Shown here piece after piece: positions 1-61,762 of a stretch of 64,000 nt of DNA (its first letter is position 1; every line of letters starts with the position of its first letter). The DNA comes from Gammaproteobacteria bacterium (GTDB lineage Bacteria > Pseudomonadota > Gammaproteobacteria > Eutrophobiales > Eutrophobiaceae): the NCBI GenBank assembly GCA_028281365.1, contig JANQJZ010000044.1:29818-93817 (forward strand). Direction: 5' to 3'. A program made the translations under genes and the position numbers. The notes beneath the pieces were generated by a model that was given only the letters and a program-made list of their open reading frames with translations, was not told the origin of the DNA and ran no database searches.

Positions 1-231
1 AAAGGTTGGGTTTCCTTCTTCAGATAATGCTTTATATAAGCCTTCACGGGTTAGACCCGTGTCTCTGGCCAATTGACTCATATTTTTTGCACGAGCGATA
101 ACTCCCAATGCATGAACAATGAAAGCAGGATCATCACCTGCCTCTTCCAGACAGGCTTCAAGATACAACTGAATATCTTCTTCTGTTTTTAGATACTCAG
201 CTGAATCCCAGCGAGTAGTTTTAATTGCCAT
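1..231 (-). CDS. HigA-like antitoxin (addiction-module antidote, HTH), 3' end outside window
   Basis: Reverse-strand translation begins MAIKTTRWDSAEYLKTEEDIQLYLEACLEEAGDDPAFIVHALGVIARAKNMSQLARDTGLTREGLYKAL, typical of the antidote partner of HigB-type killers. It lies 3 nt downstream of the toxin gene in the same orientation. Confidence 0.6.
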   Translation of the reverse strand, partial: MAIKTTRWDSAEYLKTEEDIQLYLEACLEEAGDDPAFIVHALGVIARAKNMSQLARDTGLTREGLYKALSEEGNPTF

Positions 232-234
232 AGT

Positions 235-531
235 TCACTCCTCTAATTGCCTTGCAAGGTCTTTAGCCTTGACAATGTTTAATGCTTGAGAGTCTTTATC
301 ACCACCGCATAGTAGGATAACGACAATATCAGTAATCTGTTTGAAGTAGATTCGGTAGCCTGGTCCATAGAAAATACGCAGTTCGCTGACACCTTCACCA
401 ACCGGGCCAACATCACCGAAATGACCCATTTCCATTCTGTCAATTCGAGCCTGTATACGGGCTTTTGCCCGCCGGTCCCTTAGCTTATCGAACCATTTAT
501 CGAAAATTTCCGTTTTTCGAATTTCAATCAT
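235..531 (-). CDS. RelE/ParE-superfamily toxin (HigB-like addiction-module killer protein)
   Basis: 98 aa, MIEIRKTEIFDKWFDKLRDRRAKARIQARIDRMEMGHFGDVGPVGEGVSELRIFYGPGYRIYF, which is the family signature. Toxin-first gene order as in higBA. Confidence 0.7.
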   Translation of the reverse strand: MIEIRKTEIFDKWFDKLRDRRAKARIQARIDRMEMGHFGDVGPVGEGVSELRIFYGPGYRIYFKQITDIVVILLCGGDKDSQALNIVKAKDLARQLEE

Positions 532-537
532 TTGTAA

Positions 538-567
538 ACTATAGTTGACAATCTAACAACTGTCAAC
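538..567 (-). promoter_or_regulatory. Putative TA promoter/operator: -35 TTGACA, 17-bp spacer, -10 TATAGT, overlapped by inverted repeat GTTGACA-N10-TGTCAAC; apparently leaderless
   Basis: Read on the minus strand as TTGACAgttgttagattgtcaacTATAGTttacaaATG. The -10 ends 6 nt before the toxin start codon. The palindrome overlaps the -35 and spacer, as in autoregulated TA operators. Confidence 0.4.
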
Positions 568-668
568 TGTGGTTAACAGCTCGGTTACATTACATAATGC
601 CTTCTAACGATTGAACTCAGCGGCACGCCTTTAGCGCGTCGCTTTGGAGTTATTGGTTATAAGCCGTT

Positions 669-1244
669 TTATTTTGAATGATATTCTCCAAGCGCTTTTC
701 TTAAACCTCTAGTTGCATTTACTGCCCGATTGTAATCATTGATTTTGTATTTCTCATACTCACGATGATCAATCTCGTAAATATGTATACCAGAACGGGT
801 TTCCCACAGCCAAAGTAATTGATCTCTTAATGTGGCTTTGATAATACTTTTGTTCACCATCCTATTACATCTTTCACAAAAGCTATGCTTCTTACCTATG
901 ATGCCTACGGTTCCAGCGACTGCGAGAGTTTCACTTATTGAGCCCATTAAAGTTATAGCAGATTTGATTGTCATTTCTCTAGCCACACCGTATAGAGATG
1001 TTCGGTTTATAAGCCAAAGATAGACATCAGACTGGATTAGCGCATAAGCTAGGTTATTACGAACATTTTCATTTGAGACAAATGACAGTTGGCTTCTAAA
1101 GTGGTTTGCTGTGCGGATATACCCTTTTGGGAATTTGATTCTGCCAATACCATCTCGTCGATCACCTAGATAGTTTTGAATTTGCTGGAGACAAGTATCA
1201 GCAGTATTTACAACCAGCTTTAGTTCTTTGTCGTTAGAAATCAT
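669..1244 (-). CDS. Hypothetical soluble protein (191 aa), possibly HEPN-like (R-x6-H near C-terminus: RKALGEYH)
   Basis: ORF with no recognisable family. Co-directional with and 78 bp downstream of the 1323..1904 gene. Carries VRNNLAY and RGLRKALGEYH motifs. Confidence 0.45.
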   Translation of the reverse strand: MISNDKELKLVVNTADTCLQQIQNYLGDRRDGIGRIKFPKGYIRTANHFRSQLSFVSNENVRNNLAYALIQSDVYLWLINRTSLYGVAREMTIKSAITLMGSISETLAVAGTVGIIGKKHSFCERCNRMVNKSIIKATLRDQLLWLWETRSGIHIYEIDHREYEKYKINDYNRAVNATRGLRKALGEYHSK

Positions 1245-1322
1245 GCTTGTTTTCTGAAAAGCTTATAACGTTTGAATTCAGGCGGCGACAACGCCATCGT
1301 TTGGAATGATTTGTTAAGTGAA

Positions 1323-1904
1323 TTATCCACTACAACCACCAAATTTTTGCCAAGCTTCTCCCGCAATTAGCTCAGATTGATCTCTAGCAATTTCCATAAA
1401 TTTTGCTGCTTCTTTTTCGGATATAGGAAAGTCAACCTCATGTACAGCTTTGTTTCTAAGAGCACGCAAATCATTAATATTTGCTACATCCTGTTTTGTT
1501 AATACCTCAGCTTGTTCAAGAGTTTTTAAAGCAGTACCAAACATTATTCGCTTTCCTTTTGGAACTAAGTCGAAATATTGAACTGTAGATATAGCAGTTG
1601 CCTCTAAACCCAACCAAGATTCAAGGATGGCTGCTCTAGGTGATGCTTCTTTAACTTGTTCTAGATAATAGTCAGTTTCTTCCTCTTCTTGGTTTTTTTC
1701 AGTAACTTCAATACGTTTTTTAGACTCTTGAGATTTGATACTTAATTCATCAAGACCTTTCTCAAACTCCATTTCAAGTTCTTTATACTTAAGTTTTTTG
1801 AGTTGCGGCAACAACTCGATTAATGATTTACGCAAGACAAACAATCCAATCAGGATAGTAATTGGCCAAGCTAATGAATCTATGATAGCTACTATATGCT
1901 CCAT
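1323..1904 (-). CDS. Membrane-anchored coiled-coil protein with C-terminal DUF4145/HEPN-like domain (193 aa)
   Basis: N-terminal hydrophobic helix VAIIDSLAWPITILIGLFVL, then an E/K-rich coiled coil. The C-terminal region AILESWLGLEATAI...LRALRNKAVHEV matches the DUF4145 R..GN.A.H-type motif (R-x4-H). Confidence 0.5.
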   Translation of the reverse strand: MEHIVAIIDSLAWPITILIGLFVLRKSLIELLPQLKKLKYKELEMEFEKGLDELSIKSQESKKRIEVTEKNQEEEETDYYLEQVKEASPRAAILESWLGLEATAISTVQYFDLVPKGKRIMFGTALKTLEQAEVLTKQDVANINDLRALRNKAVHEVDFPISEKEAAKFMEIARDQSELIAGEAWQKFGGCSG

Positions 1905-1923
1905 ATTTCCTTAACGCTTAGGC

Positions 1924-1950
1924 TCAGACGCGCACCTTGTGCGCGTCTGA
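1924..1950. other. Perfect 12-bp GC-rich stem-loop (TCAGACGCGCAC ctt GTGCGCGTCTGA) between two co-directional genes
   Basis: Seen directly in the sequence. No clean T-tract follows on either strand, so this is not a canonical intrinsic terminator. It may be an attenuator, processing site or REP-like element. Confidence 0.6.
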
Positions 1951-1974
1951 CTGAAGTCTCTTGTTAGGTGACTA

Positions 1975-2466
1975 CTATTTTTTTCTAACGTACTCGACTT
2001 CATGAGATGAAATAACCTCTTTTCCGACATCATACATAGCAGTACTTCCACGAAGGATATTCCCATCTCCCACAATCTCTAGGAGAAGAACAGAATATGA
2101 CAGGCGATTTTTGATAGGAGAGCGGAATGTTAAGCTAACGAATCTATCTGATATATCACCCGACACGTCTAAGGATATTGTTTCAGAATTTAAATCTGGT
2201 TTTGGTACTAAAGTTGCGGTTCCAGAAAGGCGATGTGCAATTTGCTTTAGACTCATTACTTCATGTTGAGCCCATGATCCATCATCATCTGGACCATCCA
2301 CTAGTTCCCAAGTGCCTTGAATATTCAAACCTTTATATACGTGAGATTCATACTTTGGGATTACTGTGTCATTCCAAAATCTATTTAAAAACCAGAGAAG
2401 GGTAGCTGTCAGTACGCCGCTTACTAACCCTATCAATATACTATTTGCTGTGTCTGCGGAGATCAT
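1975..2466 (-). CDS. Hypothetical membrane-anchored protein (163 aa; single N-terminal TM, then ~130-aa likely beta-rich domain)
   Basis: N-terminus ILIGLVSGVLTATLLWFLNRFW is hydrophobic and the rest is a soluble domain with no recognisable family. A 200-bp AT-rich promoter-like region lies upstream. Confidence 0.45.
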   Translation of the reverse strand: MISADTANSILIGLVSGVLTATLLWFLNRFWNDTVIPKYESHVYKGLNIQGTWELVDGPDDDGSWAQHEVMSLKQIAHRLSGTATLVPKPDLNSETISLDVSGDISDRFVSLTFRSPIKNRLSYSVLLLEIVGDGNILRGSTAMYDVGKEVISSHEVEYVRKK

Positions 2467-2668
2467 TTAGTCACCTAACTACGGTTTTTAAGTGGCAGAT
2501 TGTCCCATAAACTTATATAGAGGCGCATAACGGATATCATAGAAAATCTCCTTGTATCAATAAAATATGAAATAGACAAACTATAGTAACTCTATATGCA
2601 AAGTACCCATTTTATATTTTGAATATTTAATAAGTAATTATAGAACATTACTGTGAATGTCATGGCTT

Positions 2669-3331
2669 TTAATTTAAAACTACCCGATACAGCTCATGCC
2701 CACTTTCGTAATACTTCTTCTCAAACGGGCTGATAAAATCTTTTATATCGACATTATCTATTGATGTTTTTTTGTTTGTGACTATATCCAATGCGAATTT
2801 AAATTCCTCTGCATAGATCTGCCAGTTGGTTCTTAATTCTATTTGATCACTTAGACCAACCATCTCAGGAAAAATCGGATGTCCCTGCCAACGTCGTTTT
2901 AATTGATCTTTTTTCGGCCAGGGGTTTGGATAAAGCAGGTAATGTTTTTTTATGTTCCAGTTTGTTTTTTTTGTTAAACGCCAAATGTCAACAATATCTG
3001 CCCTGACAAGGATTAAATTATCTTCATGATAAACCGTTTTATCTTTTATTAATTTATCCAAACGTTTTTCAGATTTATCGATACCGATAATTAAATTATC
3101 AGGATAAATTTTTACCAGGTTAAAACTACTCTCACCCGTGCCACAACCCGAATCAAGAATGATAGGTTTGTTAACCTTTTTTTGTATTTCATCAACCTGA
3201 TGAAAGATGTCTTCAGAAAATTCCCGATACGGTTTTTTATATGGGTGCGATAAATGTTTTTTAACTATCTGTTCGAGATCTTTGTGAATACCCGATTGAT
3301 TACTGCTAACAACGTTTGATCTTTTCGTCAT
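2669..3331 (-). CDS. trmB: tRNA (guanine46-N7)-methyltransferase
   Basis: LDSGCGTGE SAM-binding motif, PNPWPKK motif, 220 aa. Confidence 0.85.
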   Translation of the reverse strand: MTKRSNVVSSNQSGIHKDLEQIVKKHLSHPYKKPYREFSEDIFHQVDEIQKKVNKPIILDSGCGTGESSFNLVKIYPDNLIIGIDKSEKRLDKLIKDKTVYHEDNLILVRADIVDIWRLTKKTNWNIKKHYLLYPNPWPKKDQLKRRWQGHPIFPEMVGLSDQIELRTNWQIYAEEFKFALDIVTNKKTSIDNVDIKDFISPFEKKYYESGHELYRVVLN

Positions 3332-4218
3332 TAATCCTGAAATTGAATAACGGATTGCGCCTCAAACACCGGCCCATCGACACAAACGCGTTTCATTGCC
3401 GGGCCGTTATCGGTTTCGATTAACACCGTACAACCCGCACAACCGCCTACAGCACAAGCCATGTATTCTTCCAAAGAAACCTGACACGGTAGATCATATT
3501 CTCTTGCCAGTTGTGCAACGGCTTTTAACATCAGTGTCGGGCCGCAGGAAAAGATCTCAACTTCCTTACGTTGATCTTTATCAAGATTATTCAGCCAATG
3601 CCGGGCGAGATCGGTGACATAACCATTAAAACAGCCGGGATAGTCTTGCAGACTTGTTAAACGTGATGGAATCCCCCAATCGTCCAGTAATGGCATAGAT
3701 GCAATTACTTCAGCAGGCATTCCGTTTAGTATGATTTGTGATGGTCGGCTTTTAAATGGAAACGGGATCTCTGATCCCATGATAACCAGAGGATTTAAAT
3801 CTTTTGTCGTATTTTTTATATGTTCTGCCAGGAACACCATCGGCGGAATACCTACACCGCCACCAATCAATAAAGGTCGTTTTTTATATTTATCCAGTTT
3901 AAATGATTGTCCTATCGGGCCAATCAGATCAATTTGATCACCGACGTTGCGTTTTGATAAAAGATCGGTTCCTTCACCATGCACTTTATAGAGAACATCA
4001 ATCGTATTTTCTTTCGCATTACTACGCATGATCGACATGGGTCTACGCATGTATAAAACCGGATCGCATTGCATATGAATAAAATGACCTGGCCTGGCAT
4101 GGGCAGCAGTCTCCGGTGCCTGTAAGCGCATATGGAATTGTTGTTCGGCATATTCATCTTGCGAAAGCAGTTCTGCCTGTTCCACATATAATGTGTTTCG
4201 TGTTGCAGGATGTGTCAT
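3331..4218 (-). CDS. PyrK-like FAD/NAD(P)-binding oxidoreductase with C-terminal [2Fe-2S] (DHODH electron-transfer subunit / NfnA / SudB family)
   Basis: FNR-like fold (RPMSIMS, GGGVGIPP) and C-terminal CAVGGCAGC...C cluster motif. 1-nt overlap with trmB. Confidence 0.65.
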   Translation of the reverse strand: MTHPATRNTLYVEQAELLSQDEYAEQQFHMRLQAPETAAHARPGHFIHMQCDPVLYMRRPMSIMRSNAKENTIDVLYKVHGEGTDLLSKRNVGDQIDLIGPIGQSFKLDKYKKRPLLIGGGVGIPPMVFLAEHIKNTTKDLNPLVIMGSEIPFPFKSRPSQIILNGMPAEVIASMPLLDDWGIPSRLTSLQDYPGCFNGYVTDLARHWLNNLDKDQRKEVEIFSCGPTLMLKAVAQLAREYDLPCQVSLEEYMACAVGGCAGCTVLIETDNGPAMKRVCVDGPVFEAQSVIQFQD

Positions 4219-4221
4219 TAA

Positions 4222-5499
4222 TTATTCCCGGGTAAAAACAACTTCACCATTTAATATTGTATGAGATACCTGTCCTGGTAACTCCCAACCTTTAAACGGT
4301 GAATTTTTTCCGGCACTATGTAAATTATCCTGTTCTACGTTTGTGCTCTTATCTAAATCTACAATACATATATCGGCATCTTTATCTATTTCAATCCTGC
4401 CTTTGTCAATTCCCAATATATTTGCAGGTTGTGATGTCAGTAATGGTATTGCTTTTTCTAATTTTATCTCTTTGCGATCAACCAGGTGTAATAATAAAGG
4501 TAATAGATGTTCTATGGTTGACGCACCTGGTTCGGTCAAACTAAACGGTGCCGATTTCGCATCAACGTCATGCGGTTGATGGTCTGAACAAACGGCTGTT
4601 ATAACACCATCATTAATCCCGTTAATTAATCCCTGGCGATCTCGTTCACTTCTTAATGGTGGCTGTAGATGACAATCACTATTGTAATCTGCAATATCCA
4701 TTTCCGTGAGATGCAGGTTACATATTGCAACGTCGGCTGTTACCGGGAGATCTTTTGCTTGTGCTTCCTGGATTAATTTAACGCCGCGTGCTGTTGATAA
4801 GCGGCAGAAATGAGTTTTAACATTAGTCTGTTCAACTAAAAGAAGGGCACGACTTAACGCGACTGTCTCTGCTGTTTCGGGTATAGGCGGTAAACCTAAA
4901 CGTGTACTTAATTGCCCTTCATGTGCAACACCATTATTCCTTAACGATGTATCTTCTGCATAAAAGAAAACCGTCAGGTCACAGCTACGTGCGTATTCAA
5001 ATGCACGTCTTAGTACTTCTGTATTTTCAATTGGTGCAAGTGCATTACTGACACCAATACAACCTGCCTGTTTCAATGTATTCATCTCGGCTAATTGTTC
5101 ACCTTGTAAGCCGAGGGTTAAAGCGCCTAATGGAAATACATTAGTGCGTTTAGTCTCGGATGCACGTTGTTGAATCAGATCAACGACTGCTGTTGTATCA
5201 ATAACGGGCTTGGTATCAGGTGGGCAACATATAGAAGTGATGCCGCTACTATTTGCAGCGTAACATTCTGTTTCAAACGTTGCTTTATATTCAAAACCAG
5301 GTTCTCGCAGGCGTGCACATAAATCGATCAAACCGGGTATAACAATTTTGTCTTTCGCATCTATTTCTACATCGCTATCGAAACCGCCTGGTTTCTTTTT
5401 GATACCAACTATCTTGTCATCAGCAATAAATAAATCCTGTTTTGCATCCAGTTTGTTTGTCGGATCAAAAAGTCTACCGCCCTTGATATGGATATTCAT
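4222..5499 (-). CDS. pyrC': Dihydroorotase-like protein PyrC' (inactive ATCase structural subunit)
   Basis: DHOase fold, but the HxH metal motif is replaced (IDLCARLREPG). 1-nt overlap with pyrB as in Pseudomonas. Confidence 0.8.
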   Translation of the reverse strand: MNIHIKGGRLFDPTNKLDAKQDLFIADDKIVGIKKKPGGFDSDVEIDAKDKIVIPGLIDLCARLREPGFEYKATFETECYAANSSGITSICCPPDTKPVIDTTAVVDLIQQRASETKRTNVFPLGALTLGLQGEQLAEMNTLKQAGCIGVSNALAPIENTEVLRRAFEYARSCDLTVFFYAEDTSLRNNGVAHEGQLSTRLGLPPIPETAETVALSRALLLVEQTNVKTHFCRLSTARGVKLIQEAQAKDLPVTADVAICNLHLTEMDIADYNSDCHLQPPLRSERDRQGLINGINDGVITAVCSDHQPHDVDAKSAPFSLTEPGASTIEHLLPLLLHLVDRKEIKLEKAIPLLTSQPANILGIDKGRIEIDKDADICIVDLDKSTNVEQDNLHSAGKNSPFKGWELPGQVSHTILNGEVVFTRE

Positions 5500-6479
5500 T
5501 ATTCATTTTCCTCCATATCATCACCGCTTCGTCCCATGGTCATTGCCATTACAGCCATGCGCACAGCAATACCATGACTGACTTGCTGCAAAATAACCGA
5601 GCGCTCACTATCGGCTACACTGGAATCGATTTCAACACCACGATTTATTGGACCCGGATGCATGACAATCGCATCGGGCTTTGCTTTCTCTAATCGTTTA
5701 CCGGTTAATCCGTAACGCTGAAAATATTCAAATTCACTGGGCAATAATGCGCCCCGCATACGTTCCCGTTGCAAACGTAACATCATCACGACATCAACGC
5801 CTTCAAGACCCTCATCCATATCGTGATGAACATGCACACCTAAACTTTCTACTTCTTTAGGTATTAATGTATGTGGTGCAACGATCCGTGTTTCTAATAC
5901 GCCTAATGTGTTTAGTGCATGGATCTCCGACCGGGCTACCCGTGAATGTAAGACATCACCAACGATTGCAACACGCAGGTTTTCGAACTCCTTTTTATGT
6001 CGGCGTATAGTAAACATATCCAGCATTGCCTGGGTCGGATGGGCATGACGACCGTCACCCGCATTAATGACACTGATATGGGGTGCTACTTGAGTTGCAA
6101 TATAATGTGCTGCACCACTATTTGCATGTCTGACCACAAACATATCGCAATGCATGGCCTCAAGTGTTTGCAGAGTATCACTAAGAGATTCACCCTTACT
6201 TGTTGCAGAAGTAGAGATATTCAGGTTCAGGATATCGGCTGATAATCGCTTGGCTGCAAGTTCAAACGTTGTACGGGTCCGGGTACTGGGTTCAAAAAAC
6301 AGGTTGGCTATGGTCTTACCACGTAAAAGCGGGACCTTTTTTACCGGTCTGTCACCGACAGTCGCAAAGGATTCAGCGTGATCGAGGATTTTCTGGAGTA
6401 AAGATTGGCTTAAACCTTCTGTAGTAAGAAAATGTTTTAGATTGCCGTTATTGTCGAGTTGAATTGTGTTTCCAGTCAT
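5499..6479 (-). CDS. pyrB: Aspartate carbamoyltransferase catalytic chain
   Basis: STRTR, HPTQ and HPGP motifs. Confidence 0.9.
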
Positions 6480-6982
6480 CCCGTTTGTTTTATTTCCAGT
6501 GCCAATGGCTCTGGGCCGGAGAGTTTAGCATGTTCTCCCTCATTCAGGATAATTGTTTTTCCAATTATATCAGCCTGGATAGGAAGTTCTCTCCCGCTAC
6601 GATCGATCAATACAGCTAAACTAATACTCTTTGGTCGACCGTAATCAAAGATCTCATTCATGGCCGCACGGATGGTTCTACCTGTATAGAGCACATCGTC
6701 AACAAGAATAATGTGGCGATTCTTGATATCGACAGGCAATTGACTTGGGCTAACTTCGGGGTGCATACCTAATGTACTGAAATCATCCCGATAAAAAGCA
6801 ATATTTAATTCTCCTAATGGATCACTATAGCCAAGCTGTTCATGCAACTGTTTGGCAATCCATGCACCGCCCCGCTTGATTCCTATCATCAGGGGATCTT
6901 CATGACCACTTCTACCAGTATGTTCTTTAATTGAACTGGCCATCTCAGTGAGTAACTCATCAATATTAATTTGTTCAGACAT
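6476..6982 (-). CDS. pyrR: Bifunctional pyrimidine operon regulator / uracil phosphoribosyltransferase
   Basis: PRTase motif [11 protein letters not shown], 168 aa. Overlaps pyrB by 4 nt. Confidence 0.85.
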
Positions 6983-6987
6983 TTTAT

Positions 6988-7422
6988 CTAGTGTTCCTGA
7001 TTATCTGTCGCTTTATGATTATTGTTACTAGTATTTTCATTTAGCCATGTTTCAAGAATAAGTCGGGCAGCTACTGGATCAAGGTTTCTGGTTGATTTCA
7101 ACTCCCGCCTCGCTTCATAGCTGGATAGTTGTTCTTCGATCATTTCAACTGAAATATTAAATCGATTTTGAAGTTGTCGGGTAAATTTTTCAGCCGCCTC
7201 TGTCATTTCTTGCCGATCACCTTCCAGTGTTAATGGTTGACCAACAATTAATTTATTCGGGTTCCAGCGTTCGATCAAATATTCAATATTATCCCAATCA
7301 GGCTTACCGCCTACTATCATTATTGTTTCAAGCGCGGTGGCTGTGCCAGTTACTGTTTGCCCTACTGCTGCACCAATCCGCTTTTTACCATAATCAAAGC
7401 AGAGTAATGTTTGATTGTTCAC
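6988..7422 (-). CDS. ruvX: Holliday-junction resolvase-like protein YqgF/RuvX
   Basis: N-terminal LCFDYGKKRIGAAVG motif. Confidence 0.85.
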   Translation of the reverse strand: MNNQTLLCFDYGKKRIGAAVGQTVTGTATALETIMIVGGKPDWDNIEYLIERWNPNKLIVGQPLTLEGDRQEMTEAAEKFTRQLQNRFNISVEMIEEQLSSYEARRELKSTRNLDPVAARLILETWLNENTSNNNHKATDNQEH

Positions 7423-8003
7423 GCGTGACCAATATCAGATGATAACTTATCAATATCAACTCCCATATGGCCGGCAGCAAGTTCCCAACAATGTTCATAA
7501 GGAGTATTAAAAATTATATCCCGATCGGCAGGCCCACTTAACCAGGCGTTATCCATTATTTCCTGCTCAAGCTGTCCACCAGCCCAACCAGCATAACCCA
7601 GTGCGATTAGCGAGTCTTTTGGTCCATCACCTTCAGCAATCGCTTCAAGAATATCTTTTGATGTTGTAACACAAATCTCTTCCGAGACAATAATTGATGA
7701 ATCCCACTGCTGATTTGCATTATGTAAAATAAATCCACGATCTGTATGAACAGGCCCACCGTGAAATATTTTTTTAGCATAAGCATCCGGATCATTAATA
7801 GGTATTTCCATTTGCTCGAATATTTCCCCAAGCTCTATATCAAGTGGTTTATTAATTACGATTCCCATCGCTCCTTCTTCATTGTGAGCGCAAATATACG
7901 TTACAGTTCTCTCAAAGTTTGGGTCTTTGAGACTCGGCATCGCAATCAGGAACTGATTAGTCAGATTTGTTTGCTCCATACGGATAGTATCAACAGTTAT
8001 CAC
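7419..8003 (-). CDS. algH: YqgE/AlgH family protein (UPF0301)
   Basis: LIAMPSLKDPNFERTVTYICAHNEEGAMGIVINKP signature. Confidence 0.85.
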   Translation of the reverse strand: MITVDTIRMEQTNLTNQFLIAMPSLKDPNFERTVTYICAHNEEGAMGIVINKPLDIELGEIFEQMEIPINDPDAYAKKIFHGGPVHTDRGFILHNANQQWDSSIIVSEEICVTTSKDILEAIAEGDGPKDSLIALGYAGWAGGQLEQEIMDNAWLSGPADRDIIFNTPYEHCWELAAGHMGVDIDKLSSDIGHA

Positions 8004-8068
8004 TATTTCAACAAGCTTTTTTAATATTCAACAACAAGCAATATTTATGCAAATTAATAAAAAATACT

Positions 8069-9085
8069 TTATCTAAAGCCTTTATTATTTATAAATTGCC
8101 ATGTTCTCATAATATGAAGAATATCTGTTTCATCCTTGATATGCTGTGGAAATGGAGCATATGGTGCAGCCAGTTCAACAATCCTAACCGCTGCATCATC
8201 CAGTATTTTTTCACCTGAAGATCTTCTTATTGTAATTTCATTGATAGAGCCATCAGCATTCAAGGCAACATCAAGAACCAGGCTGCCCGATAAATTTTGT
8301 TGCCTTGCTTTCTCCGGATAATTCAAATTACCAACGCGTTCTACCTTTGATCGCCATGCTTCCATATAAGCTGCATATTTATATTCTTTCGTCGTTGCCG
8401 AAATAAAAGTACGTCTTGGTCGTTTAGCCTTGGCTTCCATCTTGCGCCTGACCTCGGCGCTTAATGATGCGATCTTAAAACTATTAGTTAACAATTCAGT
8501 AGCCGATGGCATTTTTGGCTTTTTAATAGTTTCCTTTACTCTTGTCTTTTCCTTTACTGTATTTGGTTTGGTCTCTTTTGTTTTAATTTCTTTTTCTTCT
8601 GTAATTTTCTTTTCCTTTGCGGGTGTTTCAACTTTTTCAATTACCGGATCAGGACTTTTTTCATTTTCTACCGCTATTTTCTCAACTATCTCTTTTTTAA
8701 CGGGTTCGGGCTCCGGTACTTCCACTTCTGCCGCAACCGGTTCAGGTGGCTGTGGTGGCTGGGTTACGACAGGTGGTGGTGGTGTTATATTGGGTTCCGG
8801 GTCCGGGAATGGTGCTGGTAATGGTGCCGCAGGATTCAGAACTTCTTCAACATCTCCACCACCCTCGAGGCTTGCTTGCGCCAGCATGTCAGCTTCTTTA
8901 GGTTCCGGACTTTTTTGTTGAACAATTACGATCTCCATTGTGTCATAACGTGCCCGGGAACGATCCTCTTCTATAAATGTAATACCCAATATAACTATTG
9001 CATGAACTAATATGGCAATACTTAATGTCAAACCAAAACGATCAAATGGTGTAATTATCGGTTTAACTGCCTGAACTGTTGCCAC
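8069..9085 (-). CDS. TonB-like energy transducer (N-terminal TM, Pro/Glu/Lys-rich spacer, C-terminal TonB domain)
   Basis: Pro-rich PEPEP/PPQPPEP repeats and a C-terminal TonB_C-like region. Sits between gshB and algH as in Pseudomonas (PA0406). Confidence 0.7.
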   Translation of the reverse strand: MATVQAVKPIITPFDRFGLTLSIAILVHAIVILGITFIEEDRSRARYDTMEIVIVQQKSPEPKEADMLAQASLEGGGDVEEVLNPAAPLPAPFPDPEPNITPPPPVVTQPPQPPEPVAAEVEVPEPEPVKKEIVEKIAVENEKSPDPVIEKVETPAKEKKITEEKEIKTKETKPNTVKEKTRVKETIKKPKMPSATELLTNSFKIASLSAEVRRKMEAKAKRPRRTFISATTKEYKYAAYMEAWRSKVERVGNLNYPEKARQQNLSGSLVLDVALNADGSINEITIRRSSGEKILDDAAVRIVELAAPYAPFPQHIKDETDILHIMRTWQFINNKGFR

Positions 9086-9162
9086 GGTGAAGCCTGCTAT
9101 TGAAGTACCTGGTGACGAAAAACATATTTTGTTTCACACATTAAGTTCATAAATTATTCAAA

Positions 9163-10110
9163 TTAACTTTTTCGTGTGTGCTTGATCAAAACATCCAGAA
9201 AATGACCGGCGATGTCGATATTATACAAATTTTCCAACTCTCGAATACAGGTTGGGCTTGTTACATTAATCTCGGTAAGATAATCACCAATGACATCAAT
9301 ACCGACAAATAACAAACCCATCTCCTGTAACCTGGGGCCAATTCTCTCGCAAATCCACCGATCACGAGCAGTTAATTCAACACCTTTACCTGTTCCGCCC
9401 TGTGCAAGGTTACCTCTTATTTCACCTTCAGCAGGTATTCTTGCCAATGCATAAGGAACCGGTTCTCCATCAATTAAAATAATACGCTTATCCCCTGCTG
9501 CAATTTCCGGTATAAATTGTTGCACCATTACATAATCAGTCCCATTGTTCGTTATCGTTTCAAGTATCACTTTTTGATTAGGATCAGAATCAGAAACCTT
9601 GAATATGTTTTCACCTGCCATACCATCTAATGGTTTGATGATCGTGTTTTTATGTTTCCGAATGAATTCAGACAGGATATCAATATCCTGACTTACCCGG
9701 GTTGGAACAATACAGTCACTAAAATGTGTAATAAAAAATTTTTCGTTAGCATTTCTTAATGCAGAAGGACTATTTACAATCAGGGTCCCAAGACGTTCTG
9801 CATGATCAAGGATATAGGTTGAATAAATATAATTCAGATTAAAAGGAGGATCCTTTCTCATTAGAATAATATCGAGAAAATCAAGCTGCTCATTCCGTAG
9901 TTCCGTTAATTCAAACCAGTTATCAGGATCGTCAAAAACCTTTAGCCGCTGCATCCTGGCCATAGGCATATCACTATTGATATATAGATCAGATATTTCC
10001 ATGTAATAGATTTCCCAATCACGTGACTGTGCCGCGAGTAACATGGCAAATGAGCTGTCTTTTTTAATATTGATCCCGTCAACAGGATCCATAATGATGC
10101 CTAATTTCAT
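9163..10110 (-). CDS. gshB: Glutathione synthetase
   Basis: ATP-grasp fold, MKLGIIMDP N-terminus, 315 aa. Confidence 0.9.
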   Translation of the reverse strand: MKLGIIMDPVDGINIKKDSSFAMLLAAQSRDWEIYYMEISDLYINSDMPMARMQRLKVFDDPDNWFELTELRNEQLDFLDIILMRKDPPFNLNYIYSTYILDHAERLGTLIVNSPSALRNANEKFFITHFSDCIVPTRVSQDIDILSEFIRKHKNTIIKPLDGMAGENIFKVSDSDPNQKVILETITNNGTDYVMVQQFIPEIAAGDKRIILIDGEPVPYALARIPAEGEIRGNLAQGGTGKGVELTARDRWICERIGPRLQEMGLLFVGIDVIGDYLTEINVTSPTCIRELENLYNIDIAGHFLDVLIKHTRKS

Positions 10111-10148
10111 AGTAAATTTACTTGATTAATAAATAACTTTCCCAATCA

Positions 10149-11132
10149 TTGTTAAAGTGTATCATTAAGGCAGTATGTTTTAATCATTTAGACACTTCAA
10201 TTTTTAAAAAAGTGAACCAACTCAAGATTGCAACTCGTAATAGCCCACTTGCCCTCTGGCAAGCCGAGCATGTAAAACAAAGATTAATTCAGATTCATCC
10301 CAATCTGGATGTCGAACTGGTAGGCATTCAAACTGAAGGTGATCGTTTTCTTGAGGCACCATTGGTAGCGGTAGGTGGTAAGGGCCTATTTATTAAAGAA
10401 CTGGAACAATCTCTTTTGGATAACAAGGCAGATATTGCTGTGCATTCCATGAAGGATGTAACTATTGATTTACCGGAGAAGCTTATATTACCTGTTATAT
10501 TAAAAAGAGAGGATGCCCGTGATGTACTTATAAGCAGGAAATACGGTAGTTTAAAAAACATGGCAGAGGGAAGTATCGTCGGAACGTCAAGTTTACGACG
10601 ACAGTCGCAAATTCGGGCAATTCGTCCGGATCTTGAATTAAAGGATCTTCGGGGCAATGTAGGTACCCGATTACGTAAACTGGAAAATAATGAATATGAT
10701 GCAATCATCCTTGCCGCCGCCGGAATTAACAGATTGGGTTTATCTGAAATAATTACAGAATATATTCCCCCGACTGAATTATTACCGGCAATAGGACAAG
10801 GTGCGATCGGTATTGAGTGCAGGCTTAATGATCCAGATGTTTTCGATCTAATCAACCCTTTAAATGATCACGAGACAGCACTTTGTGTGCAGACTGAACG
10901 TTCTTTCAGTGCATGTTTATATGGTGGTTGTCAGCTTCCTATTGCTGGACATGCTTCAATTTCAGGAAATGAAATTAAACTTGTCGGCTTGGTAGCACGG
11001 CTTGATGGTAGTGAATTAATTATATCTGAACATAAAGGCAGCATTAACGAAACTGATGCGATTGGTATTACATTGGCCGAGTCATTACTTGAGCGCGGGG
11101 CAGATGAAATTCTTAAAGAATTAGTACATTAA
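10149..11132 (+). CDS. hemC: Hydroxymethylbilane synthase (porphobilinogen deaminase); true start probably GTG near 10212
   Basis: Homology starts at LKIATRNSPLALWQAEHVKQRL. The N-terminal 21 aa of the listed ORF have no counterpart in HemC. Confidence 0.9.
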   Translation: MLKCIIKAVCFNHLDTSIFKKVNQLKIATRNSPLALWQAEHVKQRLIQIHPNLDVELVGIQTEGDRFLEAPLVAVGGKGLFIKELEQSLLDNKADIAVHSMKDVTIDLPEKLILPVILKREDARDVLISRKYGSLKNMAEGSIVGTSSLRRQSQIRAIRPDLELKDLRGNVGTRLRKLENNEYDAIILAAAGINRLGLSEIITEYIPPTELLPAIGQGAIGIECRLNDPDVFDLINPLNDHETALCVQTERSFSACLYGGCQLPIAGHASISGNEIKLVGLVARLDGSELIISEHKGSINETDAIGITLAESLLERGADEILKELVH

Positions 11133-11936
11133 ATGATGAAAACTGCTTTGAAATTGCTGGATAAGCGTATCATGGTGACCCGTCCTGCTGCACAATCAGA
11201 AAAATTATGTCCTTTAATTTCAATCAACGGTGGAGATGTAATTTTATTTCCTACAATAGAAATTAAGGAAGTATCCAAAACTGACGAACTTAAAAATTGT
11301 TTTAATGATATTGAAAATTATGACTATATGATATTTATTAGTCGCAATGCAGTTACTACTGCATTCAAATCGTACCTTACAAATATAAAATTTCCTGAGC
11401 GGCTAAAATTCATTGCCATCGGTCCCGGCACCGGTAATATACTCAATGAGACCGGTATACCTGATGTTATCATCCCGGAGAACCGCTACGATAGTGAATC
11501 ACTTTTGCAATTATCAATACTCCATGAGGAAAATGTTCGAGAAAAAAATATACTTATTGTTAAAGGTATCGGCGGTCGTAATTTAATAGAAGACACCCTG
11601 ACTCAACGTGGTGCAAATATTAGTTGCGCAGAAATTTATGAACGTTGCATACCAACTTATAATGACGATGCTATTGACGAAATTTGGCAAGATAATAAAC
11701 CTGATATAATTATCGTAACAAGTAATGATGGACTGGATAATTTGGTAACGCTGACACATGATCACTGGAAGACTTCATTATTCAATACCCCATTAGTAAC
11801 CATGTCAGACAGAATGATTACTCTTGCAAAAGAACGAGGTTTTGTCTCAGGGTTAGCAATTGCACCGGATAAAACTGATGAAGGACTGTTGTCTGCATTA
11901 TTAGAACTGGTGGAGATGGAACATAATGACAAATGA
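11133..11936 (+). CDS. hemD: Uroporphyrinogen-III synthase
   Basis: HemD fold, immediately downstream of hemC. Confidence 0.8.
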   Translation: MMKTALKLLDKRIMVTRPAAQSEKLCPLISINGGDVILFPTIEIKEVSKTDELKNCFNDIENYDYMIFISRNAVTTAFKSYLTNIKFPERLKFIAIGPGTGNILNETGIPDVIIPENRYDSESLLQLSILHEENVREKNILIVKGIGGRNLIEDTLTQRGANISCAEIYERCIPTYNDDAIDEIWQDNKPDIIIVTSNDGLDNLVTLTHDHWKTSLFNTPLVTMSDRMITLAKERGFVSGLAIAPDKTDEGLLSALLELVEMEHNDK

Positions 11937-13005
11937 GTTAGATAAAAAGGCATCTAATAAATCGCCGGTTAAAGGAGGAAAAACAGATGAAAAAAAAACT
12001 GAAGAAGTTAACAATAAAAAAATATATTTTGTCATTCCTGCATTGTTGGTATTAATTATAATTTTTAGTTTTCTTTACTTTAATAATCAAATTTCTAATC
12101 TAAAACAACAGCTAGTAAGTTCTGAAAATAGACACAAGTTATCTCTACAGAATATTGATGATCAAATCACGAATACCAGGTCACATCTTGCCTCGATTGA
12201 AAAAAATCTGGACGAGATAGAATTAAAACAGGATGTCCTTGCAAACAGCCTGTCAGAACCGGAAAAACAACAAATACATATCAATAAGGATTATGCGCTG
12301 GCGGAAATTGAACACCTGCTGATCATTGCCAGTTACAACCTGGAATTGGACCATAACATTGAAGCTGCACTGTCTGCAATGGAATCTGCAGACAAACGTT
12401 TGGCGGGATTTGATGACCCCAACATTTTAAATGTTCGTGAGCAACTAATTACTGATATCAATCAACTCCGATCAGTAAACCAGTCAGATCTTGGTGGCCT
12501 CGGTTTGTTTCTTTCAGATTTAATAAGCCGTGTAGATTATTTACCACTGAAGGAAGATGTTGTTATAGAAAATAACAAGGATAATATTCAAAATTCCTCT
12601 TCCACTGAAACAAAATCTTTTTTTAAACTCATTTGGCATGAAATAAAAAGTCTCGTCATCATTACTCGTGATGAAGATGTAGGCAGAGCAAGATTAATTC
12701 CGGAAGAAATATATTTTCTTCGAGCAAATATAAAACTCGAATTAGCAAATGCACGATTTGCCGTTTTTAACAGGGACACAAAAAATCTGCATGCATCTGT
12801 TGAACATATACAAACATGGTTGAATGAATACTTTGATTTATCCGATGCAGGTGTACAGAACATTCATGATTCATTAACCCGTATGAAAAAACTGGAACTG
12901 GATTTTCCTGAAGTAGATATCAATTCTTCTCTTGAATCTGTCCGTGCATTCATCCGCCACCAGAATGAATTAAATGAACCGGATAATATGAGTGATATAC
13001 AATAA
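11926..13005 (+). CDS. hemX: HemX (membrane protein, putative uroporphyrinogen-III C-methyltransferase-like)
   Basis: N-terminal TM helix then coiled-coil region. Position hemC-hemD-hemX-hemY. Confidence 0.75.
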   Translation: MTNELDKKASNKSPVKGGKTDEKKTEEVNNKKIYFVIPALLVLIIIFSFLYFNNQISNLKQQLVSSENRHKLSLQNIDDQITNTRSHLASIEKNLDEIELKQDVLANSLSEPEKQQIHINKDYALAEIEHLLIIASYNLELDHNIEAALSAMESADKRLAGFDDPNILNVREQLITDINQLRSVNQSDLGGLGLFLSDLISRVDYLPLKEDVVIENNKDNIQNSSSTETKSFFKLIWHEIKSLVIITRDEDVGRARLIPEEIYFLRANIKLELANARFAVFNRDTKNLHASVEHIQTWLNEYFDLSDAGVQNIHDSLTRMKKLELDFPEVDINSSLESVRAFIRHQNELNEPDNMSDIQ

Positions 13006-61686: not shown

Positions 61687-61762
61687 TGGGGTATAGCCAA
61701 GTTGGTAAGGCACAGGGTTTTGATCCCTGCATTCCCAGGTTCGAGTCCTGGTACCCCAGCCA
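61687..61762 (+). tRNA. tRNA-Gln (anticodon TTG), 76 nt with encoded CCA
   Basis: Near-identical to E. coli tRNA-Gln. 7-bp acceptor stem TGGGGTA/TACCCCA, anticodon loop cTTTGat and T-arm GGTTCGAGTCC. Confidence 0.9.

What the first reader, a model, noticed from the sequence alone, without database searches (positions are those of the whole stretch)
669..2466. Candidate novel three-gene membrane-associated HEPN/DUF4145 cassette next to a TA module
Three co-directional genes (1975..2466, 1323..1904, 669..1244) with 70-140 bp gaps encode small proteins with no confident family assignment. Two are anchored by a single N-terminal TM helix. The middle one adds an E/K-rich coiled coil and a C-terminal domain with a DUF4145/HEPN-like R-x4-H motif (ALRNKAVH). 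The third is soluble and carries an R-x6-H near its C-terminus. The cassette is wedged between a HigB/HigA-like TA pair and conserved core genes (trmB, pyr operon), which is the typical context of anti-phage or abortive-infection islands. A membrane-tethered HEPN-like RNase with two small partners does not correspond to any named system I can place. The DUF4145 and HEPN assignments are by eye and are only moderately secure.
Basis: partly seen in the sequence, partly recalled or inferred. Interest (0 to 1): 0.78.

Follow-up and report, generated by a model that had tools for sequence, protein, structure and literature searches.

The report
Three separate integron gene cassettes
The three small genes are not one defence system but three independently mobile integron gene cassettes, followed by a toxin-antitoxin cassette, inserted just after the housekeeping gene trmB; this is an ordinary kind of element, and two of its cassettes encode little-studied HEPN-type putative RNases.

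Summary
The three ORFs are real. A covariance model trained only on attC sites from other loci, mostly a Vibrio parahaemolyticus array, finds exactly three hits in the 64-kb window. They lie at 1908-1970, 1262-1320 and 601-663, all on the gene strand. Each cassette starts with GTT plus bases complementary to its own attC.

Homologues of the three proteins never sit together: 102 of 103 loci carry only one family. Many are single cassettes in unrelated arrays. The ORF3 family keeps the same ends (TTATAAGC...GCTTATAAC) in four unrelated contigs. The nearest available relatives have trmB followed directly by a nitroreductase, with no array. No integrase lies within 9.5 kb on the side where attI is expected, so the visible part qualifies as a CALIN.

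ORF2 is a membrane-anchored DUF4145/HEPN protein with invariant WP and RNxxxH motifs, an architecture already described in 2013. ORF3 has a HEPN fold with R-x3-H-x-Y and no Pfam family. ORF1 has one TM helix plus an eight-stranded beta-barrel. The three-gene system is refuted. Each gene remains a plausible single-gene toxin or defence cassette, but nothing here tests that.

The parts
2480..2668 (-). AT-rich junction between the trmB stop (2669) and the first cassette. It has no attC and no integrase. It holds a 21-codon ORF (2540-2475) with an AAGGAG site.
   Evidence: Sequence read. No covariance-model hit here. GC 0.32-0.35. Synteny with relatives ends at 2682.
1915..2478 (-). Cassette 1. 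It starts at G|TTAGGTGA (GTT at 2479-2477) and ends at the G of the attC1 R' core (1915).
   Evidence: GTTAGGTGA at the start is the reverse complement of TCACCTAAC just after the ORF1 stop.
1975..2466 (-). ORF1, 163 aa: one N-terminal TM helix plus an eight-stranded up-and-down beta-barrel. It belongs to a large family absent from Pfam.
1908..1970 (-). attC1: R'' ACCTAAC, a perfect 12-bp central stem (1924-1935/1939-1950), R' GTTAAGG.
   Evidence: R2 model trained without window sequence: 31.4 bits, E=8.6e-5. R1: 59.9 bits. Fold z=-5.2. Inverted repeat I6.
1269..1914 (-). Cassette 2, from TTAAGGAA... to the G of the attC2 R' core.
   Evidence: Relatives in L006 and L003 start GTTAAGGG / GTTTAGGG and end CCCTTAAC / TCCTTAAC.
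1323..1904 (-). ORF2, 193 aa: WP-signature TM helix, charged helical linker, C-terminal DUF4145/HEPN domain with invariant R150-N151-x3-H155.
   Evidence: Architecture described in PMC3710099.
1262..1320 (-). attC2: R'' ACTTAAC ... R' GTTATAAG.
   Evidence: R2: 26.1 bits, E=1.2e-3. R1: 47.0 bits. Its fold is no more stable than shuffles (z=-0.24 on the window + strand, -0.09 on the - strand).
608..1268 (-). Cassette 3, from TTATAAGC... to the G of the attC3 R' core.
   Evidence: The same TTATAAGC start and GCTTATAAC end occur in L010, L015 and L016. Ungapped pairwise identity is 0.24 upstream of G|TT and 0.55 inside the cassette.
669..1244 (-). ORF3, 191 aa: soluble all-alpha protein with a HEPN fold. 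W147, R150 and H154 are invariant (R-x3-H, then usually x-Y). No Pfam family.
601..663 (-). attC3: R'' (GC)TTATAAC ... R' GTTAGAAG.
   Evidence: R2: 25.5 bits, E=1.8e-3. R1: 61.1 bits. Top-strand fold -14.2 kcal/mol, z=-2.6.
1..607 (-). Cassette 4, cut by the window edge: a toxin-antitoxin cassette with its own promoter (566-538) inside an operator-like inverted repeat (533-578). Toxin 531-235, antidote 231-1 (partial).

Best explanation
Window 1-2479 (minus strand) is the upstream end of an integron-type cassette array inserted immediately after trmB.

Structure. The array has at least four cassettes in one orientation: ORF1, ORF2, ORF3 and a RelE/ParE-HI1420 toxin-antitoxin pair. Each of the first three is a single promoterless ORF followed by its own attC site. 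No integron integrase or attI is visible on the side where they are expected, so the visible part qualifies as a CALIN (cluster of attC sites lacking an integrase).

Mobility (inferred from established integron biology). Each cassette is a separate mobile unit. An IntI acting in trans folds the attC bottom strand, cuts between G and TT of the R' core, excises the cassette as a circle and re-inserts it at an attI, attC or secondary site. The three genes are therefore neighbours by successive insertion, not by shared function.

Cargo (inferred).
- ORF2 is an inner-membrane-anchored, cytoplasm-facing DUF4145/HEPN RNase. It most likely dimerises to build an R-N-x3-H active site and cleaves RNA when triggered, causing growth arrest.
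- ORF3 is a stand-alone HepT-like HEPN-fold protein with a shortened R-x3-H-x-Y motif.
- ORF1 is a single-pass membrane protein with a small ligand-binding-type beta-barrel.
- Each is a candidate single-gene toxin or phage-defence cassette.
- The TA cassette probably stabilises the array.

Shown here: the attC sites, the cassette boundaries, the lack of co-localisation, the absence of the array from relatives, and the folds and motifs. Inferred: recombination activity, RNase activity, any defence role.
For: attC sites.
- RNAalifold on 3 window sites plus 5 foreign sites gives the canonical attC layout. There is an invariant TAAC/GTTA R-box helix, a 5/6-nt unpaired spacer and a 6-bp L-box helix with one extrahelical base. 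Four pairs show compensatory changes.
- Model R1, built from these sites, finds 20 regularly spaced sites of about 128 nt in a V. parahaemolyticus contig. All are on one strand and none was in the training set.
- Model R2, built only from non-window sites, finds exactly three hits in 64 kb. They lie in the three gaps, all on the gene strand, at E=8.6e-5, 1.2e-3 and 1.8e-3. The next best hit has E=1.8.
- On 39 distinct sites, 97.9% of cells pair and all 6 L-box pairs covary. 0 of 500 shuffles reach the observed values. Slid controls pair at 24-43%.

Boundaries.
- Each cassette start is complementary to its own R'' core.
- The ORF3-family ends are conserved in Melioribacteraceae and Desulfobacterales MAGs and in one further metagenome contig, and similarity begins exactly at G|TT.

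Independence.
- 102 of 103 homologue loci carry only one of the three families.
- In 80 metagenome loci holding ORF2 relatives, 81 of 82 attC hits are on the gene strand. In 22 loci an attC starts within 45 nt of the end of the match.
- The neighbours of the homologues differ from locus to locus.

Promoters. The only strong minus-strand promoter-like site lies in the TA cassette.

Insertion. Seven syntenic relatives, about 73% identical in DNA, have trmB followed 12 nt later by a nitroreductase. Synteny stops at window 2682.

No integrase. The flank 2669-11936 encodes only trmB, pyr genes, ruvX, algH, tonB, gshB, hemC and hemD.

Proteins. See and the papers read.
Against: - The window ends inside cassette 4. 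The length of the array and any integrase beyond the left edge are unknown.
- Exact look-ups of the 110-kb source contig failed.
- attC2 and attC3 do not fold more stably than shuffled sequence (z=-0.24 and -0.87 on the window + strand). Simple energy or arm-complementarity scans did not single them out. Their identification rests on the covariance models and the boundary logic.
- Model R2 was trained on sites selected by R1, and R1 had seen the window sites, so a mild circularity remains.
- E-values from the shortened calibration are rough.
- ORF1 homologues in four other loci have no detectable attC. The same is true of the Nitrospira copy of ORF3. The genes therefore also live outside cassettes.
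- The comparator genomes are one lineage at only about 73% nucleotide identity. A rearrangement at trmB cannot be separated from a simple insertion.
- No PADLOC model matches any of the three proteins. No experiment supports RNase activity, toxicity or defence.
Confidence: 0.86

Rival explanations
1. One reading: ORF1, ORF2 and ORF3 form one co-evolving three-gene, membrane-associated HEPN defence or abortive-infection operon.
For: The genes are co-directional and tightly spaced. They have no internal strong promoter, so they may be co-transcribed. Two are membrane-anchored and two have HEPN folds. They lie next to a TA module.
Against: No locus among 103 carries the three families together, and ORF3 never occurs with ORF1 or ORF2. 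Every gene has its own attC. In L085, the only locus with two of the families, two attC sites and another cassette separate them. The family sizes differ greatly: 6, 32 and 54 close homologues. No PADLOC hit.
Confidence: 0.04
2. The array is part of a complete sedentary chromosomal integron. Its integrase lies outside the window, either past the left edge after a rearrangement or inversion, or elsewhere in the genome. It would then not be an integrase-less CALIN created by insertion at a secondary (attG-type) site. This is a variant of the best explanation, not an alternative to the cassette reading.
For: The array runs off the window. TA cassettes are typical of large chromosomal arrays (own knowledge). 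Half of CALINs lie in genomes that encode IntI, and rearrangements can split integrons (PMC4889954).
Against: The attC orientation puts attI and intI on the trmB side, where 9.5 kb holds only housekeeping genes. Cassette insertion at GWT genomic sites is documented, and small CALINs and SALINs are common (10.1101/2022.09.11.507474). The first cassette abuts non-attC DUF-free spacer DNA at a GTT.
Confidence: 0.3
3. The intergenic palindromes are ordinary terminators or REP-type repeats, and the genes are ordinary accessory genes rather than integron cassettes.
For: attC1 has a perfect 12-bp GC-rich stem. attC2 and attC3 are thermodynamically unremarkable.
Against: The terminator scan finds none at these sites, which have no T-run. 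A model trained on foreign attC sites, mostly from a Vibrio array, picks exactly these three and nothing else in 64 kb. Each cassette start is complementary to its own R'' core. Cassette ends are conserved across phyla. The L-box covaries.
Confidence: 0.03
4. The region is a remnant of a prophage or filamentous-phage-like element carrying lysis or superinfection-exclusion genes.
For: ORF2 matches phrog_18019 over its full length (5e-16). One ORF1 homologue lies on a 3.4-kb contig with a REP_ORF2-G2P rolling-circle replication gene.
Against: No phage structural, integrase or replication gene lies in window 1-12000. ORF1 and ORF3 have no credible PHROG match (ORF1 none; ORF3 only a chance-level 0.029). 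The attC evidence explains the layout completely.
Confidence: 0.02

Closest known systems
Integron cassette arrays lacking a neighbouring integrase (CALIN; Cury et al. 2016, PMC4889954) and cassette insertion at genomic attG sites (Loot et al., 10.1101/2022.09.11.507474)
   Same: At least three attC sites lie less than 700 nt apart on one strand. There is one promoterless ORF per cassette, with GTT boundaries. No intI lies within 4 kb on the visible side. The cargo has unknown function. The array sits in a core-gene neighbourhood and is absent from relatives.
   Different: One end is off the window, so absence of an integrase is shown on one side only. Recombination was not tested. Whether the array arose by secondary-site insertion or by loss or separation of intI is unknown.
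Membrane-associated DUF4145-family HEPN proteins with a WP-signature TM helix (Anantharaman et al. 2013, PMC3710099, section on bacterial membrane-associated HEPN domains)
   Same: ORF2 has a single N-terminal TM helix with invariant W13-P14 and a C-terminal DUF4145 HEPN domain with invariant R-N-x3-H. The published example is from Vibrio cholerae, and an ORF2 homologue sits in a V. parahaemolyticus cassette array (L001).
   Different: The family has only been predicted computationally to degrade RNA at the membrane on a signal. The window protein itself scores 0.4 bits below the Pfam cutoff.
RAZR, a single-gene zinc-finger plus DUF4145 abortive-infection RNase (PMC13017515)
   Same: It has a DUF4145-type HEPN domain whose Arg and His are needed for defence. 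It is a single-gene system that arrests growth by RNA cleavage.
   Different: RAZR has an N-terminal zinc ribbon and is activated by assembling on phage ring proteins. ORF2 has a TM helix and a charged linker instead. No PADLOC model matches ORF2.
HepT/DUF86 HEPN toxins of HEPN-MNT toxin-antitoxin systems (PDB 7ae2, 5yep, 1ylm)
   Different: ORF3 has R-x3-H-x-Y rather than R-x4-H-x-Y. It has no MNT partner and no Pfam HepT hit. It is about 50 residues longer at the N-terminus.
Cap15 / S_2TMBeta CBASS effectors (PDB 7n34)
   Different: The fold is generic: avidins and designed barrels score equally or higher. ORF1 has one TM helix rather than two, no CD-NTase neighbour and no Pfam S_2TMBeta match.
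Phage-resistance integron cassettes (BRiCs; Kieffer et al., 10.1101/2024.07.02.601719)
   Same: These are small one- or two-gene cassettes of formerly unknown function. About a third contain TM helices. HigAB and AbiV-type cargo occur, and arrays act as low-cost defence islands.
   Different: None of the three window proteins has been tested. No sequence match to a named BRiC was checked.

Membership tests
Integron gene cassette (attC-bounded) | attC site with inverse core R'' (RYYYAAC) and core R' (GTTRRRY) at the 3' end of the ORF | tested here: met
   ACCTAAC...GTTAAGG, ACTTAAC...GTTATAAG and TTATAAC...GTTAGAAG. TAAC/GTTA is invariant in 39 sites.
Integron gene cassette (attC-bounded) | Folded structure: R helix, unpaired central spacer, L helix with extrahelical base, variable terminal loop | tested here: met
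   RNAalifold consensus. All 6 L-box pairs covary, with 96.5% of that helix's cells paired (97.9% over all ten pairs) and 0/500 shuffles reaching the observed values. The alignment was fitted to the model, so the pairing counts lean towards it.
Integron gene cassette (attC-bounded) | Recognised by an attC covariance model not trained on the sequence | tested here: met
   R2, trained on non-window sites only, gives three hits at E=8.6e-5 to 1.8e-3. The next best hit has E=1.8.
Integron gene cassette (attC-bounded) | The cassette 5' end (after G|TT) is complementary to its own R'' core; the unit is conserved between hosts while the flanks differ | tested here: met
   GTTAGGTGA/TCACCTAAC and GTTATAAGC/GCTTATAAC. 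The ORF3-family ends are shared by 4 unrelated contigs. Identity is 0.24 outside and 0.55 inside the cassette.
Integron gene cassette (attC-bounded) | IntI-dependent excision and integration | not testable with these tools
   Needs a recombination assay.
Complete integron | intI and attI adjacent to the first cassette | tested here: not met
   Window 2669-11936 encodes trmB, pyr genes, ruvX, algH, tonB, gshB, hemC and hemD only. The left side is off the window.
CALIN | At least 2 attC sites within 4 kb and no integron integrase nearby | tested here: inconclusive
   Three attC sites lie within 1.4 kb. There is no integrase on the right side. The left side is not visible.
DUF4145 / HEPN superfamily (ORF2) | Profile match to PF13643 and a conserved R-x4-6-H motif | tested here: met
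   26 of 28 family members match, best E=8.7e-8. The window protein scores 22.7 bits against a 23.1-bit cutoff. R150-N151-x3-H155 is invariant. Weak PDB HEPN hits.
WP-TM + DUF4145 group of Anantharaman 2013 (ORF2) | [quoted passage not shown] | tested here: met
   W13 and P14 are invariant in 28 sequences. Hydropathy peak at residues 4-22. Description in PMC3710099.
HEPN RNase (ORF2, ORF3) | RNA cleavage dependent on the Arg and His | not testable with these tools
   Needs biochemistry.
HepT/DUF86 HEPN toxin (ORF3) | HEPN four-helix fold | tested here: met
HepT/DUF86 HEPN toxin (ORF3) | R-x4-H-x-Y motif, Pfam HepT-like match, adjacent MNT antitoxin | tested here: not met
   The motif is R150-x3-H154-x-Y. 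No Pfam hit in 44 members. No MNT gene in the cassette.
Integron cassette HEPN family (PDB 3jrt) | Sequence or structural similarity to 3jrt | tested here: not met
Cap15 / S_2TMBeta CBASS effector (ORF1) | Two TM helices, beta-barrel, Pfam S_2TMBeta, CD-NTase operon | tested here: not met
Known anti-phage systems (PADLOC 2.0) | HMM match | tested here: not met
   No hit for ORF1-3 at E<=1 or for 10 distant ORF1 relatives.
   0 of 103 loci have all three families. 102 have exactly one.

The most novel reading that the evidence does not exclude
One or more of the three cassettes is a new single-gene phage-defence or toxin module. There are two attractive cases. First, the ORF1 family (one TM helix plus a Cap15-like eight-stranded barrel; at least 802 clusters at 50% identity; no Pfam, PADLOC or PHROG model) could be a stand-alone membrane effector that senses a small molecule without a dedicated cyclase. 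Second, the ORF3 family could be a new HEPN clade with a shortened R-x3-H-x-Y catalytic motif that works without an MNT antitoxin.
Probability: 0.2. Interest if true: 0.6.

Novelty: new member of a known kind. Interest (0 to 1): 0.3.

Why it matters
The result corrects the unit of analysis. What looked like a three-gene operon is an array of independently mobile cassettes. Guilt-by-association between these neighbours is therefore invalid, and cloning the three genes together as one system would be misdirected.

The region is a clean example of an integron-type array sitting directly after a housekeeping gene without a visible integrase. It is relevant to the question of how CALINs arise: by secondary-site insertion or by loss of the integrase.

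The cargo gives three compact candidates for the growing catalogue of integron-borne single-gene defence or toxin cassettes. They are the WP-TM DUF4145 HEPN protein, a HEPN-fold family absent from Pfam, and a large TM-plus-beta-barrel family. None has been tested.

Tried and rejected
- Source contig. Exact-sequence look-ups to recover the 110-kb contig and its left flank failed for ORF2, ORF3 and the toxin. The source genome was not among the genome-contig hits.
- Hand-made attC detectors did not discriminate. ViennaRNA with pair constraints let chance GC-rich pairings outrank the real sites. Arm-against-arm alignment scores were too strict. Duplex energies over all 4236 AAC...GTT candidates were also unhelpful.
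- Plain MAFFT alignment of foreign attC sites gave no RNAalifold consensus. A curated 8-sequence set was needed.
- Fold stability alone is significant only for attC1.
- Profile-profile comparison of ORF3 with ORF2 aligned the two R..H motifs, but at 0.5% probability. HEPN status for ORF3 therefore rests on the predicted fold.
- PADLOC, NCBIfam and PHROGs gave nothing useful for ORF1 and ORF3.
- The two ORFs upstream of the L016 array, suspected to be a broken intI, are DUF3795 and DUF2946 proteins.
Full report
OBSERVATION. The three minus-strand ORFs exist exactly as listed: 1975-2466 (163 aa), 1323-1904 (193 aa) and 669-1244 (191 aa). The gaps between them are 70 and 78 nt. ORF1 and ORF2 each have one strongly hydrophobic N-terminal segment. 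ORF2 matches Pfam DUF4145 at 22.7 bits, against a cutoff of 23.1, and more weakly matches other HEPN models. ORF1 and ORF3 match nothing in Pfam, NCBIfam or PADLOC. Downstream lie a RelE/ParE toxin (TIGR02683) and its HI1420-type antidote (TIGR02684). Upstream lie trmB and the pyr genes.

On the coding strand, each ORF is followed by an imperfect palindrome. It starts with an RYYYAAC-type core just after the stop codon and ends with GTTRRR just before the next ORF. The first bases of each unit are the reverse complement of the core at its own 3' end: GTTAGGTGA...TCACCTAAC for ORF1 and GTTATAAGC...GCTTATAAC for ORF3. This is the signature of integron gene cassettes, in which recombination between G and TT of the attC R' core joins successive cassettes (established integron biology; PMC4889954).

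TESTING THE attC HYPOTHESIS. Simple energy and arm-complementarity scans did not discriminate. Only attC1 folds significantly better than shuffled sequence. I therefore used covariance models, as IntegronFinder does.
- An alignment of the three window sites with five sites found next to homologues elsewhere gave the textbook attC structure. It has an invariant TAAC/GTTA helix, a 5/6-nt unpaired spacer and a 6-bp second helix with one extrahelical base. Four pairs show compensatory changes.
- Model R1, built from this alignment, recognised 20 evenly spaced sites of about 128 nt on one strand of a Vibrio parahaemolyticus contig. None of them had been used for training.
- I then rebuilt the model (R2) from the 26 non-window hits only and searched the window with filters off. 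It returned exactly three significant hits: 1908-1970, 1262-1320 and 601-663. All are on the gene strand, with E=8.6e-5 to 1.8e-3, and the next hit has E=1.8.
- On 39 distinct sites from many contigs the R box is invariant and all six L-box pairs covary. 97.9% of cells pair, 0 of 500 shuffles reach the observed values, and slid controls pair at 24-43%. This alignment was fitted to the model, so the pairing counts lean towards it.

INDEPENDENCE OF THE THREE GENES. Database searches gave 32 close relatives for ORF2, 54 for ORF3 and 6 for ORF1. A profile search extended the ORF1 family to 802 clusters. I collected 103 loci around such homologues and searched them with all family members.
- 87 loci hold only an ORF2 relative, 11 only an ORF3 relative and 4 only an ORF1 relative.
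- One locus (L085) holds an ORF2 relative and a weak ORF1-like ORF. Two attC sites and another cassette separate them.
- The neighbours differ from locus to locus. They include a 1928-aa NACHT-like protein, HigBA and Fic in L003. They are an Mrr-like nuclease in L006, Mrr-like and SIR2-HerA cassettes in L016, and small Vibrio array genes in L001.
- In 80 metagenome loci with ORF2 relatives, 81 of 82 attC hits lie on the gene's strand. In 22 loci an attC starts within 45 nt of the end of the match.
- The ORF3 family keeps the same cassette ends (TTATAAGC...GCTTATAAC plus attC) in the window, in Melioribacteraceae and Desulfobacterales MAGs, and in one further metagenome contig. Ungapped identity is 0.24 just outside G|TT and 0.55 just inside.

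GENOMIC SETTING. The attC orientation places attI and intI on the trmB side. That side holds a 189-nt AT-rich spacer and then only housekeeping genes for 9.5 kb. The visible part therefore fits the CALIN definition, although the array runs off the left edge of the window. Seven syntenic contigs of a related marine lineage are about 73% identical in DNA and colinear from window position ~16280 down to 2682. In them trmB is followed 12 nt later by a nitroreductase gene, and none of their downstream genes occurs anywhere in the window. The array is thus accessory DNA whose boundary coincides with the 3' end of trmB. This is compatible with insertion at a secondary genomic site, as shown experimentally for cassettes (10.1101/2022.09.11.507474), or with a rearranged integron (PMC4889954). 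The only strong promoter-like site on the coding strand lies in the TA cassette, inside an operator-like inverted repeat. The other three cassettes are promoterless, as is typical of cassettes.

THE PROTEINS.
- ORF2. The family has invariant W13-P14 in the TM helix, a conserved KYKELExEF segment and invariant L-R-x-L-R-N-x3-H. Of 28 members, 26 hit DUF4145 and 12 hit HEPN_RiboL-PSP. The PDB profile search finds only HEPN proteins, weakly. ORF2 also matches phrog_18019 over its full length. [quoted passage not shown] The published example is from V. cholerae, and the prediction was a cytoplasmic RNase on the inner membrane responding to surface stimuli (PMC3710099). The same paper notes HEPN and RelE-type RNases as recurrent integron cargo. 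A functional precedent for a single-gene DUF4145 RNase is RAZR (PMC13017515).

MECHANISM AND STATUS.
- Shown: the attC sites, the cassette boundaries, the independence of the three genes, their absence from relatives, and the folds and motifs.
- Inferred from established integron biology: each cassette is excised and integrated individually by an IntI acting on the folded bottom strand, and expression depends on read-through from upstream.
- Inferred from the families: ORF2 and ORF3 are RNases that arrest growth when activated. ORF1 is a membrane protein with a ligand-binding-type barrel. The TA cassette stabilises the array.
- A defence role is plausible, because integron cassettes of unknown function often confer phage resistance and about a third of these carry TM helices (10.1101/2024.07.02.601719). 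It is untested here, and PADLOC finds nothing.

VERDICT. The finding is an ordinary kind of element, an integron-type cassette array, carrying poorly characterised cargo. The proposed novel three-gene HEPN system does not exist as a unit. Novelty: new member of a known kind. Interest: 0.3.

Noticed in passing
window 2475-2540 (-): A 21-codon ORF (MISVMRLYISLWDNLPLKNRS*) has an AAGGAG site 7 nt upstream of its ATG. Its stop codon TAG overlaps the G|TTAG junction where cassette 1 begins, 8 nt before the ORF1 ATG. It recalls the short attI-borne ORF said to aid translation of first cassettes in class 1 integrons (from memory, untested).
   Followed up: no
window 533-578 (-): The TA cassette carries the only strong sigma-70-like promoter on this strand (TTGACA-17-TATAGT, 566-538). 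It is embedded in an 18-nt inverted repeat, probably an autoregulated operator. The other three cassettes are promoterless.
   Followed up: partly
L104-L110 (e.g. L104:13249-14663) versus window 2669-2682: A related marine lineage, about 73% identical in DNA, is colinear with window ~16280-2682. It has trmB followed 12 nt later by a nitroreductase, then DUF5698, dksA-like and ahpC genes. None of these is in the 64-kb window. The synteny break is exactly at the trmB 3' end.
   Followed up: yes
L016:10670-13921: In a Desulfobacterales MAG, the cassettes after the ORF3-family cassette encode an Mrr-like nuclease (360 aa) and a single 661-aa protein combining SIR2 and HerA domains. Each is followed by an attC hit. 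This array also starts without an integrase.
   Followed up: partly
L021:826-3371: An ORF1 homologue (57% identity) sits on a 3.4-kb contig with a REP_ORF2-G2P rolling-circle replication gene and no detectable attC. The ORF1 family therefore also travels on small ssDNA-type replicons.
   Followed up: partly
L085:1-5599: A dense array of about ten attC sites in 5.6 kb. An ORF2 relative and a 225-aa ORF with weak ORF1-like similarity lie two cassettes apart. This is the only locus with two of the three families.
   Followed up: yes
L012/L013 (Nitrospira), L020 (Pyrinomonas): ORF3-family genes occur here without any recognisable attC. This suggests either recruitment of the gene into cassettes from chromosomal copies or decay of the attC.
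   Followed up: partly
window 61687-61759 (+): A tRNA gene is the only Rfam family hit in the window at gathering threshold.
   Followed up: no
window 5499-6479 and 9163-10110: The 90% identity cluster of PyrB includes 'marine bacterium B5-7' and Tara Oceans sequences. GshB clusters with a 'Pseudomonadota bacterium' MAG. The source is therefore an uncultured marine proteobacterium.
   Followed up: partly
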